DNA of 64,000 bases, from positions 33,819-97,818 of the IMG/VR virus record IMGVR_UViG_3300027833_000025. One strand, written 5' to 3'. Shown here piece after piece: positions 55,136 to 64,000 of the stretch. The translations under genes and the position numbers were made by a program. The stretch comes from a virus. The notes under the pieces were generated by a model, which saw nothing but the letters and a program-made list of their open reading frames with translations, was not told the origin of the DNA and made no database searches. The first letter of the stretch is position 1; every line of letters starts with the position of its first letter.

Positions 55136-55304
55136 CAGATTCCTTCGGGTTATGCCATATTACATTATTAGTGTCCAGTTCCGCACTCCATTGCATCAAT
55201 TTATTATACACTGGATAGATAACATCAACGAGAATATCCAAATATAACAATTTTGAAATCATATCGCCTAGAAAATAACAAATATGTGCAAGTATTAATT
55301 TCAT
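55125..55304 (-). CDS. small protein (59 aa, not in ORF track)
   Basis: ATGA overlap with prs stop; Y.LGD.IS...[12 protein letters not shown]. Confidence 0.6.
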
Positions 55305-56269
55305 AATTTTACTATTTTTTGAGTGAATAAACTGCTTACGCTTTCTTCGTTGGTGACACGTCGAATTGCTTCACCAAACATAGTGGAAGCACTCACTACA
55401 CGTGTTTTTTTATGATTCTTTGGGCAGTTAAATTCAATGCTGTCAGTAATTACTAGTTCAATGAGTACACTCTTTTCAATTTTTTGACATGCAGTACCAC
55501 TAAGGACGCCGTGTGTAATGTATGCTCTAACACTAAGTGCACCAGCATCTATAATTGCTTGAGCAGCATTGCATAATGTACCACCTGAGTCAACGATATC
55601 GTCTACTAGGATAGCGTGTTTACCTTTAACATCGCCAATTAACCCCATGACTTCACTTTGTCCTGCACGAGGTCTACGCTTGTCTACAATAGCAATGTCG
55701 CCACCAAACATGTCAGCGAACTTACGTGCACGTACTGTACCACCTGCATCGGGGCTTACAAATACAGTTTCAATTTTGTTTAAGTCAGTACCTTCTTTAA
55801 AGAACTGCTTCTTAATATCTTTTGCAAATGCAATACGTGATGTTAGATCATCTACGGGGATATCAAAGAATCCCTGTATTTGTCCAGCGTGCAAATCCAT
55901 TGTGAGAACTCGGTTTGCGCCTGCGGTTGTTAGTAAGTCTGCTACTAACTTCGCGGTAATTGGAGTGCGTGATGCACTCTTACGATCTTGTCGTGCATAT
56001 CCAAAATAAGGTATGACTGCTGTAATGCGAGTTGCGCTGCTACGTTTAGCAGCATCAATCATAACCAACAATTCCATGAGATTGTCATTCACTGGAGTGC
56101 TTGTACTTTGCACAATAAAGACATCTTCACCTCTAATATTTTCGTTAAACTGAATACTAGATTCACCATCAGCAAATGTTTTGATGTCCGCTGATACGAG
56201 TTCTACAAAGCACCTGTCTGCTATATCTTGTGCCATTTGTAGGTTGCTATTTCCTGCAATAATTTTCAT
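55301..56269 (-). CDS. prs: ribose-phosphate pyrophosphokinase
   Basis: [44 protein letters not shown]; own sigma70 promoter 56311-56339. Confidence 0.97.
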
Positions 56270-56350: not shown

Positions 56351-56557
56351 TTATGAATTTGCAATTTTAAACATCATTGCATCTTGTTCTTTCTCAAACC
56401 AGAACATTGATCCTGCTGGAGAATTTGCAAAGTCACCAGTACAATGTGTTAAACACCATTTCCTATCAATATCAATTCGTTCACCTGACTCACTATATGG
56501 TCGTTCAATACGATACCAGCCTTCATATGCAAGTTCATGTAAGGACGAGAACACCAT
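56351..56557 (-). CDS. WC...FxxxxDAxxFK family protein
   Basis: KWCLTHC...FWFEKEQDAMMFKI. Confidence 0.7.
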   Translation of the reverse strand: MVFSSLHELAYEGWYRIERPYSESGERIDIDRKWCLTHCTGDFANSPAGSMFWFEKEQDAMMFKIANS

Positions 56558-57418: not shown

Positions 57419-57467
57419 TTTAATTAACTTATACAATAATTATAACACAAGGCGCCTTGGTTGTCAA
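57419..57467 (-). promoter_or_regulatory. sigma70-type early promoter cassette
   Basis: TTGACA-17-TATAAT on -, spacer CAAGGCGCCTTG. Confidence 0.9.
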
Positions 57468-57752: not shown

Positions 57753-57800
57753 TTTATTAACTTATGTAACTATTATAACGCAATGAGCCTTACTTGTCAA
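57753..57800 (-). promoter_or_regulatory. sigma70-type early promoter cassette
   Basis: TTGACA-17-TATAAT on -, spacer AAGGCTCATT. Confidence 0.85.
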
Positions 57801-57864: not shown

Positions 57865-58932
57865 TTATGTCTTCTTGCGATATACTCTCTTTTTCTTTGC
57901 TGGTGCTGCTGCTTCAATTAGTTCTGCTTCATCTAACACCTTATTGAATTCACGTAGACGCTTAATCACTGATTGAAAGTCAACAATCGTTGTCCATCTA
58001 TCAATGAAGAATGTCATTGAACCCTCTACTCTACTAAATGCGTTAAGTACTTGGAATAGAACACCTAATGTTATTAACTGTTCAAAGTAACTTGGTGCTA
58101 ATACAATGATTGCTATGTTTCCTGCTGCTAATCCGAATGCAGTTGACCATACACCAAACCCCATATACCAGTTGAACAAACGATAATAGTTTTTCTTTAC
58201 TGCTGCAAACATTGGAAATAAATCATCAGTTACACGTTGAGTCAAATCATCTTCTGAATGAACTAATTTCTTTCTGAATTTTGCTTCTACCACTTGGTTA
58301 TTGTATTCTAGTCCAGGCAATTTCATACCTAGTATGAATGAGATCAATGTACCACCGATAGATACGCCTAGTGCTACCCATACTAAGAATCCAGGGATGA
58401 TATGACCATTCCAAACTGGTAGTCCTTCTGAAAGTTCCCATAAGATCGGCAAGAATGCAAATAATACAAGTATTGCACTAAAGAAGCCAGTGAATAGACT
58501 TTGTAATGTTTTACCGAATACCATTAAATCTTCTTGAATACGCTGTGACCCACCTTCTATTTTAGCAGTGGATTTCTCCCATCGTTTAAGATAGTGATGT
58601 GTATTCGCTTCGCGCCAACGGAATGTATACCTCTGTGTCTGCCATATAACGTATGTTGCCATTGGTGTATATAGGATTATAATTTCCAAGAATGATGGTA
58701 CAGTATCTTCTTTTATTGTTAACAACTCGGTAAATCTGATCACATCAAATCCCCATAATAAGTCCCAAAATCTTTCTTCTTGTAGTGTTTGAATTGCGTC
58801 ATAGAACTCTTTATTCCATAAGTTGTATGCTACTAATATTTGTACATTGTACCAAGTAATAACTAACAAGAATGCAAGCATTACCCATGCATATACGGCA
58901 CTTTCTTTCGTTCCAAAGAAACTTTTTAACAT
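57865..58932 (-). CDS. SbmA/BacA-family peptide transporter
   Basis: M.KSFF N-terminus, N.W...FYD.IQ, FRWR, IEG.SQRIQED, LE.NNQ.VEA.FRK.LV..ED, KRLR.F. Confidence 0.88.
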   Translation of the reverse strand: MLKSFFGTKESAVYAWVMLAFLLVITWYNVQILVAYNLWNKEFYDAIQTLQEERFWDLLWGFDVIRFTELLTIKEDTVPSFLEIIILYTPMATYVIWQTQRYTFRWREANTHHYLKRWEKSTAKIEGGSQRIQEDLMVFGKTLQSLFTGFFSAILVLFAFLPILWELSEGLPVWNGHIIPGFLVWVALGVSIGGTLISFILGMKLPGLEYNNQVVEAKFRKKLVHSEDDLTQRVTDDLFPMFAAVKKNYYRLFNWYMGFGVWSTAFGLAAGNIAIIVLAPSYFEQLITLGVLFQVLNAFSRVEGSMTFFIDRWTTIVDFQSVIKRLREFNKVLDEAELIEAAAPAKKKRVYRKKT

Positions 58933-58943
58933 TTAATATTCTC

Positions 58944-59831
58944 CTATTTTAACGCTGCTTCTGCATTCGATGCTGAATAACTCCAAAAGTCTTTGTAATT
59001 AGTTGCAATTGTAACTAATGCTGGTTTTGCAGCAAAATCCCTTGGATGTAACCAATACATTGATGCAGATGGAATTTGTATGAATAATAATCTTAATGAC
59101 TCATTAACTCCTAGTCTGTCTAACAATTTTAATAATGCTGCCGCAGTACGATATGCAGATGCTTCTAGTGCTGTTGGATTCATTTTACCAATCGATTCTA
59201 ATGGTGTGCGTGGACCATGTATGCCAAAATACACATCACCTATTAAGTATCGTTTATCACCTGCTAGAAATAAAAGACCGCATGCAGATGCACACATTGA
59301 CTTGTCTTTCATACTATCTTTTGTATTTTCACTATTTAAGTTCACAGTACCAGGCGTGTATATTACTTTGCCATTTTCATTAAATACTTCTGTTGCACGC
59401 ACTACCGTAATCACATCACGCAATTTAAAATGCGCTGCAAGGCATGAACCTTCTGATAGACTGCCACCTGGACTTTCTAAAATAACAGTAAATGATGATG
59501 GTAAGTCTGGAACAATACGTTCACAATCTCCTTCTAGCACAGATCCTACCAAAGTATATAAGTTCTGATCTATTTTAGTAAAAACAAGTCCAGTTTCTTT
59601 ATTGGCTTCTTCTTCTTCTGTTTTATCTTTATTTGCTTCGATATAAAGTATCATGTAATCATTATACCAAGTATGTATTTGGTTAGCAGAGAATAATAAT
59701 ATGATTATCGTCATGATTACCAATGGCGCACTGTGTGATATTTTATTGTATAATCTAATTATTAATTTAATCAATGACCAACTGATAATATACTGTTTAA
59801 TATATTCATAAACATTTTTAATTTTATTCAT
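58944..59831 (-). CDS. membrane-anchored ClpP/crotonase-fold protein (COG3904-like)
   Basis: TM, then LESPGG, CASAC..F.AG..R, FGIH. Confidence 0.7.
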   Translation of the reverse strand: MNKIKNVYEYIKQYIISWSLIKLIIRLYNKISHSAPLVIMTIIILLFSANQIHTWYNDYMILYIEANKDKTEEEEANKETGLVFTKIDQNLYTLVGSVLEGDCERIVPDLPSSFTVILESPGGSLSEGSCLAAHFKLRDVITVVRATEVFNENGKVIYTPGTVNLNSENTKDSMKDKSMCASACGLLFLAGDKRYLIGDVYFGIHGPRTPLESIGKMNPTALEASAYRTAAALLKLLDRLGVNESLRLLFIQIPSASMYWLHPRDFAAKPALVTIATNYKDFWSYSASNAEAALK

Positions 59832-60075
59832 CGTTTTTCTTCTCTAGATTTTTTTCTGTGATCTCAATATATTTTTTCATAGTCACACAATCTGTACGTG
59901 TGATTAACCTATATTCCATATCAAGCGTAGACTCGCTATTCATTCTACCTTTATACACTTCACAAATTTCCATTGTTGGAAATGGATATGATTTCATTAC
60001 TCCATTACCCAATTGTATTCCAAATAATGATACTACATAATGTGCTACTAATAATACTGCCTGTGGTGCATCCAT
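59824..60075 (-). CDS. small exported protein
   Basis: Hydrophobic N-terminus, F.TME.C...C; GGAG RBS. Confidence 0.6.
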   Translation of the reverse strand: MDAPQAVLLVAHYVVSLFGIQLGNGVMKSYPFPTMEICEVYKGRMNSESTLDMEYRLITRTDCVTMKKYIEITEKNLEKKNDE

Positions 60076-60092
60076 TATAGACTTACTCCTTG

Positions 60093-60602
60093 TTAATTTA
60101 TTACTATATTACGCGGTTTTGGTACTTCTTTCAGTATGCTTTGTCCATTATCATCTATATTAGACATTATGAATGACATTGCTTCACCGTTTAATCCTTT
60201 CTTGAACTTTCCTTGTGGTTGAGATTTACCATCAGCACCAGTTAATTCTTTTACCTTCTGTAAATTTTCTTTACTCCAATCTATTTTATATAATTTGGGA
60301 CCAACGTACTTAGTTGGTTCTGACAATAGTAAGTATATCCAAGGTTTTTCATCGTATGCATATAATAATTGTACCTCTTTATTATATGGTAAACCATATA
60401 TTGGCATTCCTTGCAATGCAGTTATCGCTTGCCAACTATAGAGTGACATTAGTAACGCTGTTGGAATAATAATAAATGTGTATAACCTATTTGCTTTGCT
60501 CTGTATTAGTGCATACACGCATACTACTACTAGTAAAAACAAACCAATAACATACAACACGATCATGATATCTACATTCATTACATTTAATACACTATAC
60601 AT
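60093..60602 (-). CDS. membrane protein (2 TM + soluble domain)
   Basis: Two TM helices, G.P, WIYL...P..Y. Confidence 0.7.
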   Translation of the reverse strand: MYSVLNVMNVDIMIVLYVIGLFLLVVVCVYALIQSKANRLYTFIIIPTALLMSLYSWQAITALQGMPIYGLPYNKEVQLLYAYDEKPWIYLLLSEPTKYVGPKLYKIDWSKENLQKVKELTGADGKSQPQGKFKKGLNGEAMSFIMSNIDDNGQSILKEVPKPRNIVIN

Positions 60603-60616
60603 AATACTTATCCTCT

Positions 60617-61273
60617 TTATCTTGCCCCGCCAGGCGAAGGTCTTGTCTCTCTAGGTGAAGGTATTGTAACAGAAGATCCAGAATTAACACGTGGTATTAC
60701 CATATCACTGATAAAAATATCTGATATATTACCTTCATTATCCACTGTAAACGCTGGCATTTTGAATATCTCACCTTTCTTGGTTGCATACTCTTGTATG
60801 TGAATTACTTCTTTATATGGATTAATGTCCACTAATGAAACTGTGAACAATGTTGGTTTGTCTGTGGGATACTTTCCGTATATATGTACATTAATAAAAT
60901 AGTCACCGGGCATTATACCACGCATATTAACTACTTCTCTATTAATTCTTATTATTTTTGGTACACCAGCAACCATGATTGTATCAGATGTGGATCCTAA
61001 ATCATCTCTATCAAGATGCATGAATCCGCTAGTTTTATTTTGAAAACTCAATGGAAATTCCATACCTGGACCCATCACCCATATATCAATATCATCAGAA
61101 ACCTGACCATCCCATTCAAGGATTATCATTATTTCTGCATACGCAGGTATATCTCCCTGTTTTGTAATAGGATTTATTAGTACTAGCACTAGAATGAATA
61201 ACGTTACAAAGCCTAATAAGGCGTTAAATAATATGTCATTAAATGCGAGATTAGAACTATATCTCTCTTTCAT
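60617..61273 (-). CDS. ExbD/MotB-like single-TM protein with YfaP/DUF2135-like exported domain
   Basis: AFNDILFN TM with Asp; W...DDIDIWV..P, LDRDDLG, PGDY.INVH.Y. Confidence 0.65.
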   Translation of the reverse strand: MKERYSSNLAFNDILFNALLGFVTLFILVLVLINPITKQGDIPAYAEIMIILEWDGQVSDDIDIWVMGPGMEFPLSFQNKTSGFMHLDRDDLGSTSDTIMVAGVPKIIRINREVVNMRGIMPGDYFINVHIYGKYPTDKPTLFTVSLVDINPYKEVIHIQEYATKKGEIFKMPAFTVDNEGNISDIFISDMVIPRVNSGSSVTIPSPRETRPSPGGAR

Positions 61274-61716
61274 TTATTATTATTATCCTGTAATATAAGT
61301 TGAGATCGTAATGAGACAGACGCTATCAGACCAACTAATGTAGTCAACAATGCTGTTGCCATACCATTCGCTAATTGTCCGATTACATCTTTCATTGATT
61401 GAATATTAGATGGGTCTAATGAACCTAAGTCACTACCATCTAACATAAGAATAAATCCAAGAACTGTACCCATCATACCAATAGACATACAGGTTTCTGC
61501 TATGAACCAATATTTTTCATCAGATGTGGTAGAACGGGTATAAGACCTATGCCCAATTTTAACACTTGTTAAAAACCATAGTCCTAACAATGCAAACGAA
61601 ATATATGTTTGATCATTTTGAAATACATATATATGTAAATCATAATAGTATGCTGTCCCAAGTGCAAGCAGTTGAATTACGAAAATTAACCACCAAAATA
61701 AAAAATCCTTTGTCAC
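61270..61716 (-). CDS. minimal MotA/TolQ/ExbB proton-channel family protein
   Basis: IGMMGTVLGF and GMATALLTTLVGL signatures; late box 61737-61747; GTG start with GGAG RBS. Confidence 0.85.
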   Translation of the reverse strand: MTKDFLFWWLIFVIQLLALGTAYYYDLHIYVFQNDQTYISFALLGLWFLTSVKIGHRSYTRSTTSDEKYWFIAETCMSIGMMGTVLGFILMLDGSDLGSLDPSNIQSMKDVIGQLANGMATALLTTLVGLIASVSLRSQLILQDNNNK

Positions 61717-61779
61717 TATAATATTCTCCCTGTTAATACTATTTATGTCAAAACAAAAAAAGACTCCTCAGGAGTCTCA

Positions 61780-62271
61780 TTATGCATTTGCAATTCTAAA
61801 CATTAGTGCGTCTTTTCCATCTTCAAAGTAAACCTTACATGAATTGAATTTTGCGTTGTCTGGATTGATATATCGTTGTCCCACATAATATCTACCTATA
61901 ACGTTATCTTCACACCAATCAGAGTATGAAGTGTATTCTTCATGTATGTTTCTTTCTGGTAATACGACTGTACTCCATCCATCAGGTATGTTAGTCTTAA
62001 AAGTTCTACGCATCCAGTTCGGGATAGATGGTGGGTGCGGCTGTAACCAAGTTGGAAATTTACTGTAGATATCGTATAACATTCTATATGATTTATAATG
62101 AAACGGAAATATCATAAGTAAAACTGCTATCACATACATGAAAACCGCAATCCAGTAAACTATTTCGCCTAAATTATCACTAACCATCAACGCAATCAAC
62201 TGAATGCCCATTGCGAAAGAATATAATGTATTCCTAATAAAGAAAGATTTAACTACATTTACATACTTCAT
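61780..62271 (-). CDS. membrane protein fused to WC...FxxxxDAxxF domain
   Basis: Two TM; DWCEDN...VYFEDGKDALMFRI. Confidence 0.65.
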   Translation of the reverse strand: MKYVNVVKSFFIRNTLYSFAMGIQLIALMVSDNLGEIVYWIAVFMYVIAVLLMIFPFHYKSYRMLYDIYSKFPTWLQPHPPSIPNWMRRTFKTNIPDGWSTVVLPERNIHEEYTSYSDWCEDNVIGRYYVGQRYINPDNAKFNSCKVYFEDGKDALMFRIANA

Positions 62272-63599: not shown

Positions 63600-64000
63600 T
63601 TAATATGTTTTGATCACTTTATCGGCAATACCATGCTTTACTGCTTGATCTGGTGTTAACCAATGATCTGTCTTAGGTGCTAATGTAAACTCACGGATAT
63701 ATTTTTCAGACTTACCAGTGCATTTCTTGTAATGCTCTAGCAGTTTTTTATTTGTCCAATTCATGTGCTTGTGACTGTCTATCATGTCGTGATACTGACC
63801 TTGTGTACCACCACTGAATTCGTGTGACATCACTGCGGTATTATGTGTTAGATAACGATGTCCTTTAACACCAGACATCATCAGCATTACACCACAACTT
63901 GCGATAGATCCCATGCCGTATGTATACACTGGAATACGTGATTGCTTCACAACATCAATTAGATGCATACAAGAATCCACATAACCGCCAGGCGAATTAA
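63600..64000 (-). CDS. clpP: ClpP protease, 5' truncated by window edge
   Basis: Frame open to the edge: NSPGG, G.IASCG (catalytic Ser), M.HE, WL...AV..G..D. Confidence 0.88.
   Translation of the reverse strand, partial: NSPGGYVDSCMHLIDVVKQSRIPVYTYGMGSIASCGVMLMMSGVKGHRYLTHNTAVMSHEFSGGTQGQYHDMIDSHKHMNWTNKKLLEHYKKCTGKSEKYIREFTLAPKTDHWLTPDQAVKHGIADKVIKTY

What the first reader, a model, noticed from the sequence alone, without database searches (positions are those of the whole stretch)
57865..61747. Late six-gene membrane operon: minimal MotA/ExbB + ExbD-like pair, exported ClpP-fold protein and SbmA/BacA transporter
Seen: a late box (61737-47), then a 148 aa MotA/TolQ/ExbB-type protein with almost no cytoplasmic domain, a partner with the TM Asp and a YfaP-like domain instead of an OmpA domain, a 2-TM protein, a small Cys-pair protein, a COG3904-like protein and SbmA/BacA, closed by a terminator. 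Established: such pairs form ion-driven 5:2 motors (stator, Ton, Tol, Zorya), and SbmA is a proton-driven peptide importer. Inference: a phage-encoded PMF-driven envelope machine for peptide scavenging (with PepA and ClpAP), superinfection exclusion, lysis timing or interference with host Ton/Tol/Zorya motors.
Basis: partly seen in the sequence, partly recalled or inferred. Interest (0 to 1): 0.75.

Follow-up and report, generated by a model that had tools for sequence, protein, structure and literature searches.

The report
Phage mini ion-motor plus peptide importer
An uncultured marine jumbo phage carries one late operon joining two separable envelope gene sets, an undescribed three-protein miniature relative of the flagellar-stator/Ton/Tol ion motors and a periplasmic peptidase-like protein paired with a trimmed SbmA peptide importer, whose jobs are still unknown.

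Summary
Six tightly packed minus-strand genes lie between two terminators (61778-61760 and 57851-57825), behind a late-type box, CATAAATA at 61747-61740.

The operon is two modules, not one six-part machine.

**Module 1, the triad g1-g2-g3**
- It has a 148-aa MotA/ExbB-type protein, a single-pass partner with an invariant membrane Asp and a TerD-like beta-sandwich, and a two-helix hairpin protein.
- It is syntenic wherever the DNA allowed the test: 83 phage loci and most of 36 bacterial loci, some with housekeeping flanks.
- In 13 phage loci (and one MAG contig) g3 is fused to a T4-type lysozyme.

**Module 2, g4-g5-g6**
- It has a small Cys-pair protein, a membrane-anchored protein with ClpP/SppA-like Ser/His motifs, and a core-only SbmA/BacA transporter.
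- g5 directly precedes g6 in all 62 close relatives with upstream DNA.
- It sits after the triad, before the triad, or 30-50 kb away.

**Best reading (inferred):** a PMF-driven periplasmic motor acting on the cell wall, plus peptide cleavage and import late in infection.

This scan found the triad, and triad plus SbmA, before on other DNA. No paper describing it turned up. I class it as a new variant of a known kind.

The parts
61760..61778 (-). Intrinsic terminator closing the upstream gene (163-aa membrane protein). It marks the 5' boundary of the operon.
   Evidence: 8-bp stem with 4 GC pairs, followed by a T run; sequence read.
61740..61747 (-). Late-type promoter box CATAAATA, 23 nt before the GTG start of g1, with a GGGAGA Shine-Dalgarno sequence between them.
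   Evidence: Sequence. NATAAATA lies upstream of g1 in 14 of 27 relatives, against about 0.4 expected. It overlaps a weaker sigma-70-like TTGACA-17-GAGAAT site that would leave no room for the SD.
61270..61716 (-). g1: minimal MotA/TolQ/ExbB-type channel subunit, 148 aa, with no cytoplasmic domain.
   Evidence: Pfam PF01618, 29.3 bits against a cut-off of 22.9. The family keeps invariant G80, G83, T84, G87, A122, T126 and G129 in the last two TM helices. The profile hits TolQ, PomA, MotA, ExbB and ZorA chains only over those helices, E 0.01-0.8.
60617..61273 (-). g2: single-pass partner with a membrane Asp (D13) and a periplasmic TerD-like beta-sandwich carrying an invariant acidic cluster.
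   Evidence: D13, D61, D63, D88, D90, D91 and D97 are invariant in 47 sequences. AF2 model pLDDT 83.7. Best fold matches are TerD 2qz7, Z 9.2, and 2kxt, Z 9.0; the next match is Z 6.1. Its start overlaps the g1 stop (ATGA).
60093..60602 (-). g3: two-helix membrane hairpin with a small C-terminal beta-rich periplasmic domain. It is the third conserved subunit.
   Evidence: AF2 model pLDDT 77.6, helices 10-37 and 39-63. It directly follows g2 in nearly all 84 phage loci (two have an extra ORF between). It is fused to Phage_lysozyme in 13 phage loci plus L086. No clear fold match was found.
59824..60075 (-). g4: 83-aa protein with an N-terminal hydrophobic segment and two invariant Cys.
   Evidence: Alignment of 28 distinct homologues. 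It is present in arrangements A and C only.
58944..59831 (-). g5: membrane-anchored, probably periplasmic protein with ClpP/SppA-like Ser/His motifs and four invariant Cys.
   Evidence: Invariant ESPGG, CASACG and GIHGP motifs, and C103, C130, C180, C184. hhalign against phage ClpP aligns these motifs, P 0.002, probability 14%. Atlas leads to COG3904 and CLP_protease at 0.90. No Pfam or PDB sequence hit.
57865..58932 (-). g6: core-only SbmA/BacA (SLiPT) transporter lacking the TM0 domain.
   Evidence: Pfam PF05992, 5e-80. It matches E. coli SbmA residues 91-399. Equivalents of E193, E276, E287, R190, R280, K281 and D288 are kept; E378 is D and E203 is Q. Residue roles are from PMC8442886.
57825..57851 (-). 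Intrinsic terminator closing the operon.
   Evidence: 11-bp stem, 5-nt loop, T run. A perfect sigma-70 promoter follows at 57800-57772.

Best explanation
The operon joins two separable envelope modules that are probably transcribed late.

**Module 1 (g1-g2-g3).** This is an undescribed, very small member of the MotA/ExbB/TolQ ion-motor superfamily. By analogy with solved 5:2 complexes, g1 would form the ion-conducting ring around a dimer of g2. The g2 membrane Asp (D13) would take the coupling ion. g1 has no cytoplasmic domain, so the work must be delivered in the periplasm. It would go through the TerD-like beta-sandwich of g2 and the hairpin protein g3. In some phages g3 carries a T4-type lysozyme, so the likely target is the cell wall: late wall remodelling or lysis.

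**Module 2 (g4-g5-g6).** A membrane-anchored periplasmic Ser/His peptidase-like protein (g5) probably cuts envelope or periplasmic proteins or peptides. The core-only SbmA-type transporter (g6) would import the products. g4 is an accessory Cys-pair protein.

**Shown versus inferred.** Shown here: the family assignments of g1 and g6, the invariant residues, the synteny, the lysozyme fusion and the arrangement types. Inferred: the stoichiometry, ion coupling, the wall as target, g5 catalysis, the g6 substrate, and any cooperation between the two modules.
For: **g1 and g2**
- g1 passes the Pfam MotA_ExbB cut-off, as do homologues in rhizobiophages and bacteria.
- The channel-helix motifs of g1 are invariant.
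- D13 of g2 is invariant.
- The g1 stop and g2 start overlap as ATGA.

**Spread of the triad**
- The triad is syntenic in 84 of 84 phage loci; g1 is present in 81 of the 81 with upstream DNA.
- It is also present in most of 36 bacterial loci, two of which were shown to have housekeeping flanks.
- The g2 family has 2237 cluster representatives.

**Link to the periplasm and wall**
- The g2 periplasmic domain best matches the TerD fold, Z 9.2 and 9.0.
- g3 is fused to Phage_lysozyme, E about 1e-47, in 13 phage loci plus L086.

**Timing**
- The NATAAATA box is conserved upstream of g1.

**Module 2**
- g5 directly precedes g6 in all 62 close relatives that have upstream DNA.
- The g5 Ser and His motifs align with those of ClpP.
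- Four invariant Cys and an N-in anchor fit a periplasmic location for g5.
- g6 keeps most of the SbmA glutamate ladder.

**Linkage of the modules**
- Adjacency of the two modules is kept in two different gene orders. On the SbmA tree order B is basal and order A appears at least twice.
Against: - No complex model or experiment exists; 5:2 assembly is an analogy.
- g2 is not a sequence member of the ExbD, TolR or MotB families. g3 has no recognisable fold.
- The lysozyme fusion is confined to one clade. The window's g3 has no enzyme domain.
- The two modules are 30-50 kb apart in arrangement C. Most triads have no SbmA, and no bacterial triad has SbmA nearby. Cooperation is therefore not required.
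- g5 has no Pfam or PDB sequence hit, and the hhalign probability is only 14%.
- g6 lacks TM0, and the residue equivalent to E203 is Gln in 104 of 121 close relatives. E203A abolishes transport in E. coli SbmA (PMC8442886). Proton coupling may therefore differ.
Confidence: 0.45

Rival explanations
1. The two modules are functionally unrelated accessory cassettes. They merely share a variable, late-expressed region of these jumbo and T4-like genomes, and their adjacency reflects shared ancestry and island structure rather than cooperation.
For: - In arrangement C, g4-g5-g6 lies 30-50 kb from the triad in the same genome.
- The triad occurs without SbmA in 75 of 84 phage loci and at all bacterial loci.
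- Distant phage SbmA genes have neither g5 nor the triad next to them.
- Genes flanking the triad vary widely: sugar enzymes, RNase H, glycosyltransferases.
Against: - Adjacency persists in two different gene orders interleaved on the SbmA tree.
- SbmA also sits next to the triad in distant lineages at 34-38% identity: L009, L059/L062 and L083.
- 5 of 10 tested SbmA-bearing records, and both records at or above 90% completeness, also hold a g2 homologue.
Confidence: 0.33
2. The triad is a lysis-timing or holin-like device. On this view it is a regulated proton leak that collapses the membrane potential late in infection and so releases or activates wall hydrolases, rather than a motor doing mechanical work.
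For: - A late-type promoter is supported.
- The third subunit is membrane-tethered and fused to lysozyme in one clade.
- g2 has only about 12 residues between its TM helix and the beta-sandwich. No plug region was identified, but none was specifically searched for.
- From established knowledge: unplugged MotB variants leak protons and stop growth.
Against: - The same triad sits in bacterial chromosomes between housekeeping genes. A dedicated lethal leak would be hard to keep there.
- No holin or spanin context was seen around the triads surveyed.
- The elaborate, conserved periplasmic domains of g2 and g3 are not needed for a leak.
Confidence: 0.12
3. The operon protects the infected cell from rivals or defences. 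Candidate roles are superinfection exclusion, or interference with the host's Ton, Tol or Zorya motors by forming mixed or decoy complexes.
For: g1 matches ZorA models in PADLOC and NCBIfam over the channel helices, best E 2.2e-08. It is equally distant from TolQ, PomA, MotA and ExbB.
Against: - The matches cover only the shared TM core. The ZorA tail, the ZorB wall-binding domain and ZorC/D are absent.
- A late promoter is unusual for exclusion genes.
- Chromosomal homologues with housekeeping flanks suggest a cellular function of its own.
- The phage brings its own partner subunits, so it does not need host ones.
Confidence: 0.06
4. g4-g5-g6 is a peptide-signal module. g4 would be a secreted precursor, g5 its processing peptidase and g6 the importer of the mature peptide.
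For: - g4 is small, with a hydrophobic N-terminus and an invariant Cys pair.
- g5 and g6 are obligately paired.
Against: - g4 is missing from arrangement B, which is basal on the SbmA tree.
- No receptor or regulator candidate was found.
- The g4 N-terminus lacks a typical signal-peptide n-region.
Confidence: 0.04

Closest known systems
ExbB-ExbD-TonB and TolQ-TolR-TolA (Ton and Tol-Pal inner-membrane energisers, solved as 5:2 complexes)
   Same: - It is a three-gene set: a MotA/ExbB-family channel protein, a single-pass partner with a membrane Asp near the cytoplasmic face, and a third membrane protein reaching into the periplasm.
- Output is on the periplasmic side.
- The g1 profile's best PDB hit is TolQ.
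   Different: - g1 has four hydrophobic segments and no cytoplasmic domain.
- g2 carries a TerD-like beta-sandwich rather than the ExbD/TolR fold, and has no Pfam ExbD match.
- g3 is a two-helix hairpin without the TonB/TolA SHLS-type single anchor, proline-rich spacer or C-terminal domain.
- No outer-membrane partner is known.
MotAB / PomAB flagellar stator units
   Same: - g1 has the N-in, four-segment topology of MotA/PomA, with conserved motifs in the last two helices.
- The g2 Asp corresponds in position to MotB D32.
- PomA and MotA chains are hit at E 0.013-0.017.
   Different: - The FliG-binding cytoplasmic (torque-generating) domain is replaced by a loop of about 15 residues.
- There is no OmpA-like wall-binding domain.
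- There is no flagellar context.
- g1 is smaller even than the 'condensed cytoplasmic domain' generic ion transporters of PMC12505986.
ZorAB core of Zorya anti-phage systems
   Same: The MotA/ExbB-type TM core is shared; PADLOC ZorA models match at up to E 2.2e-08 over residues 66-144.
   Different: - There is no long ZorA cytoplasmic tail, no ZorB wall-binding domain and no ZorC/D effectors.
- It is encoded by phages and by chromosomes between housekeeping genes.
E. coli SbmA / S. meliloti BacA (SLiPT proton-driven peptide importers; PDB 7P34)
   Same: - g6 aligns with the whole six-helix core, E 2.4e-56.
- It keeps the equivalents of R190, E193, E276, R280, K281, E287 and D288.
   Different: - It lacks the two-helix TM0 domain.
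- The E203 equivalent is Gln and the E378 equivalent is Asp.
- It falls below both NCBIfam equivalog cut-offs: 305 against 385 and 237 against 492.
- It is always preceded by g5 in its clade.
ClpP / SppA / NfeD-type serine peptidases and COG3904 'predicted periplasmic protein'
   Same: The SPGG, (C)AS(A)CG and (I)H(G)P motifs come in the same order and spacing as in ClpP. The Ser and His align with those of the phage's own ClpP-like protein. Atlas neighbours are named COG3904 and CLP_protease.
   Different: - It has an N-terminal membrane anchor, a 25-residue insert and four invariant Cys.
- It has no Pfam, NCBIfam or PDB sequence match.
- The fold was not modelled.
TerD (tellurite-resistance Ca-binding beta-sandwich; PDB 2KXT, 2QZ7)
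   Same: It is the best structural match of the g2 periplasmic domain: Z 9.2 and 9.0, 132-138 residues aligned, three Z units above the next hit. Both are rich in conserved Asp.
   Different: - Identity is 13%, and TerD is not among the Pfam families the g2 homologues hit.
- TerD proteins are soluble and cytoplasmic, whereas this domain is membrane-anchored and periplasmic.
- Metal binding was not tested.

Membership tests
MotA/TolQ/ExbB proton channel family (PF01618) | Profile match above the curated cut-off | tested here: met
   29.3 bits against 22.9 for g1. Homologues in L001, L002, L088 and L109 also pass.
MotA/TolQ/ExbB proton channel family (PF01618) | Conserved Gly/Thr motifs in the last two TM helices that line the ion path | tested here: met
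   G80, G83, T84, G87, A122, T126 and G129 are invariant in 41 sequences. They align with the TolQ and PomA motifs.
MotA/TolQ/ExbB proton channel family (PF01618) | Cytoplasmic domain between the membrane anchor helices and the channel helices | tested here: not met
   The window protein has only about 15 residues there. Relatives range from that to about 80 residues.
5:2 ion-driven rotary motors | Pentamer of A subunits around a dimer of B subunits | not testable with these tools
   No multimer prediction or experiment was available.
ExbD/TolR/MotB B subunits | Single N-terminal TM helix with a conserved Asp near the cytoplasmic face | tested here: met
   D13 is invariant in 47 sequences. The helix spans 9-33 in the model.
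ExbD/TolR/MotB B subunits | Sequence membership (Pfam ExbD or OmpA-like periplasmic domain) | tested here: not met
   No ExbD, TolR or OmpA family appears among the hits of 47 members at E up to 1. The model is a beta-sandwich.
TerD domain | TerD-type beta-sandwich fold | tested here: met
   2qz7_B: Z 9.2, rmsd 3.9 A, 132 residues aligned. 2kxt: Z 9.0, rmsd 4.5 A, 138 aligned. The next hit is Z 6.1.
TerD domain | Sequence family match and Ca-binding motifs | tested here: inconclusive
   TerD is not among the Pfam families hit. An invariant Asp cluster is present, but its geometry was not examined.
DUF2135 (YfaP-like, PF09906) | Profile match | tested here: inconclusive
   5 of 47 members hit it, best E 0.0039, below the cut-off. 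The window protein does not hit it. Atlas lead at 0.83.
SbmA/BacA (SLiPT) transporters | Full-length match to PF05992 and to solved SbmA | tested here: met
   5e-80 over profile positions 5-314 of 315. 2.4e-56 to 7p34.
SbmA/BacA (SLiPT) transporters | TM0 domain (helices 0a and 0b) | tested here: not met
   The match starts at SbmA residue 91, and only about 18 residues precede it. The TM0 definition is from PMC8442886.
SbmA/BacA (SLiPT) transporters | Glutamate ladder E193, E203, E276, E287, E378 | tested here: inconclusive
   E193, E276 and E287 are kept. The E378 equivalent is D. The E203 equivalent is Q in the window and in 104 of 121 close relatives.
ClpP/SppA-type serine peptidases (COG3904-like) | Catalytic Ser and His in the conserved motif order | tested here: met
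   S182 in CASACG and H205 in GIHGP are invariant in 23 sequences. They align with the phage ClpP Ser and His motifs.
ClpP/SppA-type serine peptidases (COG3904-like) | Profile or fold membership | tested here: inconclusive
   No Pfam, NCBIfam, PHROG or PDB sequence hit. hhalign probability 14%, P 0.002. Atlas at 0.90.
Zorya ZorAB | Long ZorA cytoplasmic tail, ZorB wall-binding domain, ZorC/D neighbours | tested here: not met
   g1 is 148 aa, and the matches cover only the TM core. No such neighbours are present.
T4-type late transcription unit | TATAAATA-type box shortly upstream of the first gene | tested here: met
   CATAAATA lies 23 nt upstream of the start. NATAAATA is conserved in 14 of 27 relatives against about 0.4 expected. 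Actual timing was not measured.

The most novel reading that the evidence does not exclude
The triad is a new class of ion-driven envelope motor whose periplasmic output is applied to the cell wall. Phages would use it as part of a hitherto unrecognised lysis or wall-opening apparatus. In this lineage it is coupled to a periplasmic peptidase and an SbmA-type importer, so that envelope breakdown products are pulled back into the cell to feed late phage synthesis.
Probability: 0.2. Interest if true: 0.85.

Novelty: new variant of a known kind. Interest (0 to 1): 0.66.

Why it matters
**The motor.** The MotA/ExbB superfamily powers flagella, Ton and Tol transport, gliding and type 9 secretion, and Zorya defence. 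A much smaller three-part version has not been studied, as far as the library searched shows. Its g2 family has over 2,000 cluster representatives at 50% identity, and it is spread across ocean phages, rhizobiophages and alphaproteobacterial chromosomes. It has no cytoplasmic domain. That makes it a candidate minimal system for asking how ion flow is turned into periplasmic work. The lysozyme fusions give a concrete, testable target.

**The importer.** SbmA-type importers in phages are also almost unstudied. About 400 viral contig stretches encode one. The obligate pairing with a peptidase-like protein suggests a phage route for peptide uptake in nutrient-poor seawater.

Tried and rejected
**Searches that found nothing**
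- DNA-level search of the region against cultured phages gave no match.
- tblastn of g1 against cultured phages gave no match.
- g2 matched only rhizobiophages.
- PHROGs, NCBIfam and PADLOC gave nothing for g2-g5.

**Fold and profile tests that were not decisive**
- Foldseek and VIA searches with the g3 model returned only helical-hairpin matches and weak small-barrel matches.
- PDB sequence searches with g2 and g5 profiles were empty.
- A Pfam scan of 23 g5 homologues found no peptidase family.
- A search for DUF2135 in the phage record was negative.

**Leads tested and set aside**
- Trypsin-like peptidases as a general neighbour of the triad: only three sporadic cases, L063, L002 and phage 16-3.
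- A sigma-70 promoter reading of the upstream region: the -10 element would overlap the ribosome-binding site.

**Tools and literature**
- Literature searches found no description of the triad or of phage SbmA.
- One search failed on term syntax and was not repeated.

Full report
**What is there**

Between two intrinsic terminators (61778-61760 and 57851-57825) lie six minus-strand ORFs. Their junctions are very tight: g1/g2 share ATGA, g4/g5 overlap by 8 nt, and the other gaps are 11-17 nt. Directly after the closing terminator comes a perfect sigma-70 promoter for the next gene. The six genes therefore form one transcription unit.

The window is the right-hand 64 kb of a 97.8-kb viral contig. 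Its clamp loader is closest (53% identity) to PA5oct-type Pseudomonas jumbo phages.

**The promoter**

It sits 23 nt before the GTG start of g1, with a GGGAGA ribosome-binding site in between.

NATAAATA octamers are not enriched in this genome overall, so one match proves little. However, 14 of 27 diverged relatives have such a box within 90 nt upstream of their g1, often right after a terminator. About 0.4 would be expected from the genome-wide rate. I take late-type transcription as supported by conservation. It has not been measured.

**Module 1: the triad**

*g1* (148 aa) passes the Pfam MotA_ExbB cut-off. Across 41 homologues the Gly/Thr motifs of the last two helices are invariant. A profile of the family finds TolQ, PomA, MotA, ExbB and ZorA chains only weakly and only over these helices (E 0.01-0.8). 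It is therefore a separate branch of the superfamily. The cytoplasmic loop is about 15 residues here and up to about 80 in bacterial relatives.

*g2* (218 aa) has no family match. Its single helix carries D13, invariant in 47 sequences, along with an invariant acidic cluster (D61, D63, D88, D90, D91, D97). The AlphaFold model (pLDDT 83.7) is a helix plus a beta-sandwich. The best structural matches are TerD proteins (Z 9.2 and 9.0, next hit 6.1).

*g3* (169 aa) is modelled as a two-helix hairpin followed by a small beta-rich domain (pLDDT 77.6). No convincing structural relative was found.

**How far the triad reaches**

Three unrelated groups of Rhizobium phages carry g1-g2-g3 in the same order without g4-g6.

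- Among 84 phage loci, including the window, iterated profiles find g2 and g3 in 84. They find g1 in all 81 loci that have upstream DNA.
- The same triad occurs at most of 36 bacterial loci.
- Examples include Pelagibacteraceae-type MAGs between SufB and aspartate dehydrogenase genes, and a 3.5-Mb Geminicoccaceae contig beside trehalose-phosphate synthase. These are not obviously prophage settings.
- An exhaustive profile search finds 2237 cluster representatives of g2.

**A clue to the target**

Earlier notes of this scan said that the third subunit is sometimes fused to a wall-cutting enzyme. I tested this.

- In 13 phage loci and one MAG contig the g3 homologue is about 300 aa.
- Its last 125 residues match Pfam Phage_lysozyme at E about 1e-47.
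- This fixes the C-terminus of g3 in the periplasm and links the triad to peptidoglycan.
- The fusion is limited to one clade, and the window's g3 has no enzyme domain.

**Module 2: g4-g5-g6**

*g6* is a clear SbmA/BacA protein (5e-80). It aligns with residues 91-399 of E. coli SbmA. It therefore lacks the TM0 domain described for SbmA (PMC8442886). Of the residues shown there to be needed for transport, the equivalents of R190, E193, E276, R280, K281, E287 and D288 are invariant in 139 phage sequences. The E378 equivalent is D or E. The E203 equivalent is Gln in 104 of 121 close relatives, including the window.

*g5* has an N-terminal anchor, four invariant Cys and invariant ESPGG, CASACG and GIHGP motifs. 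hhalign against the phages' own ClpP-like proteins lines up these motifs (P 0.002, probability 14%). Atlas neighbours are named COG3904 and CLP_protease. No profile library recognises it. The ClpP/SppA-type assignment is therefore probable, not shown.

*g4* keeps a hydrophobic N-terminus and two invariant Cys.

**How the two modules relate**

A survey of 79 viral SbmA loci gave the following.

- In the clade at or above 59% identity, g5 directly precedes g6 in all 62 loci that have upstream DNA.
- Order A, triad-g4-g5-g6: 11 loci, as in the window.
- Order B, g5-g6-triad: 20-21 loci.
- Order C, g4-g5-g6 with no triad nearby: 29 loci.
- In three of three order-C records where a match was possible, a g2 homologue lies 30-50 kb away in the same genome.
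- On an SbmA tree, order B is basal, order A appears at least twice, and order C is derived (FastTree, supports not examined).
- More distant phage SbmA genes (40-42% identity) have neither g5 nor the triad next to them.
- L009, L059/L062 and L083 do have SbmA just after the triad, at 34-38% identity.
- No bacterial triad has SbmA nearby.

Linkage is therefore recurrent but dispensable.

**Reading**

All six products are membrane or periplasmic proteins. This rests on the models, charge distribution, the invariant Cys and the lysozyme fusion.

I read the triad as a minimal ion-driven motor of the MotA/ExbB kind that delivers its work in the periplasm, probably at the cell wall. I read g5+g6 as a peptide cleavage and import pair.

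The main rival is that the two modules are unrelated neighbours. A holin-like proton leak, exclusion or anti-defence, and peptide signalling are less likely, for the reasons given under each rival.

**Status**

This scan has met the triad at least eight times on other DNA, and once together with SbmA. My TerD and promoter results were obtained before I read those notes. The lysozyme lead came from them and was checked here.

I found no paper on the triad or on phage SbmA in the library. The recent survey of MotAB homologues (PMC12505986) describes 'generic ion transporters' with condensed cytoplasmic domains, but nothing this small and nothing from phages.

Noticed in passing
window 63600-63998 (-), and L019, L021, L022, L029, L038 directly upstream of g1: A ClpP-like gene is cut by the contig end in the window. 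In many relatives a ClpP-like gene of 183-216 aa lies immediately upstream of the triad. In the window's lineage the clamp loader and two small genes sit between them.
   Followed up: partly
window 61780-62271 (-) and 56351-56557 (-): The 163-aa membrane protein upstream of the operon and a 68-aa ORF 5 kb downstream end in the same short C-terminal motif, D-A-(L/M)-M-F-(R/K)-I-A-N-(A/S). The L004 homologue ends similarly. No family match was found.
   Followed up: no
window 57772-57800 (-) and 57439-57467 (-): Two perfect 12/12 sigma-70 promoters (TTGACA-17-TATAAT) precede the small genes just downstream of the operon. This suggests that early, host-polymerase units abut the late operon.
   Followed up: no
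window 57865-58932 (-), residue 144: The residue equivalent to E. coli SbmA E203 is Gln in the window and in 104 of 121 close phage relatives, but Glu in 11 of 18 distant phage SbmA proteins. E203 is the proposed first proton-binding site, and E203A abolishes transport.
   Followed up: partly
L048:4424-5290 and L051:2811-3677; L051:4609-6048: In one phage lineage a 288-aa protein is inserted between g2 and g3. It has a near-cut-off match to a TET-associated glycosyltransferase. A full SufB-like gene lies just downstream of that triad.
   Followed up: no
L204:1606-2505 (phage 16-3 p036), L002:6480-7172, L063:7307-8269: Trypsin-like, typically periplasmic serine peptidases lie within 1-2.5 kb of the triad in three unrelated phages. 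The pattern is sporadic rather than general.
   Followed up: partly
window 55301-56269 (-): By eye, a 322-aa ORF looks like ribose-phosphate pyrophosphokinase (PRPP synthetase). This was not tested with any tool here.
   Followed up: no
L114, L119 (Candidatus Harrisonbacteria and Yanofskybacteria MAG contigs): The triad also occurs on contigs binned to candidate-phyla-radiation bacteria, which are thought to lack an outer membrane. I did not check whether these contigs are phage-derived.
   Followed up: no
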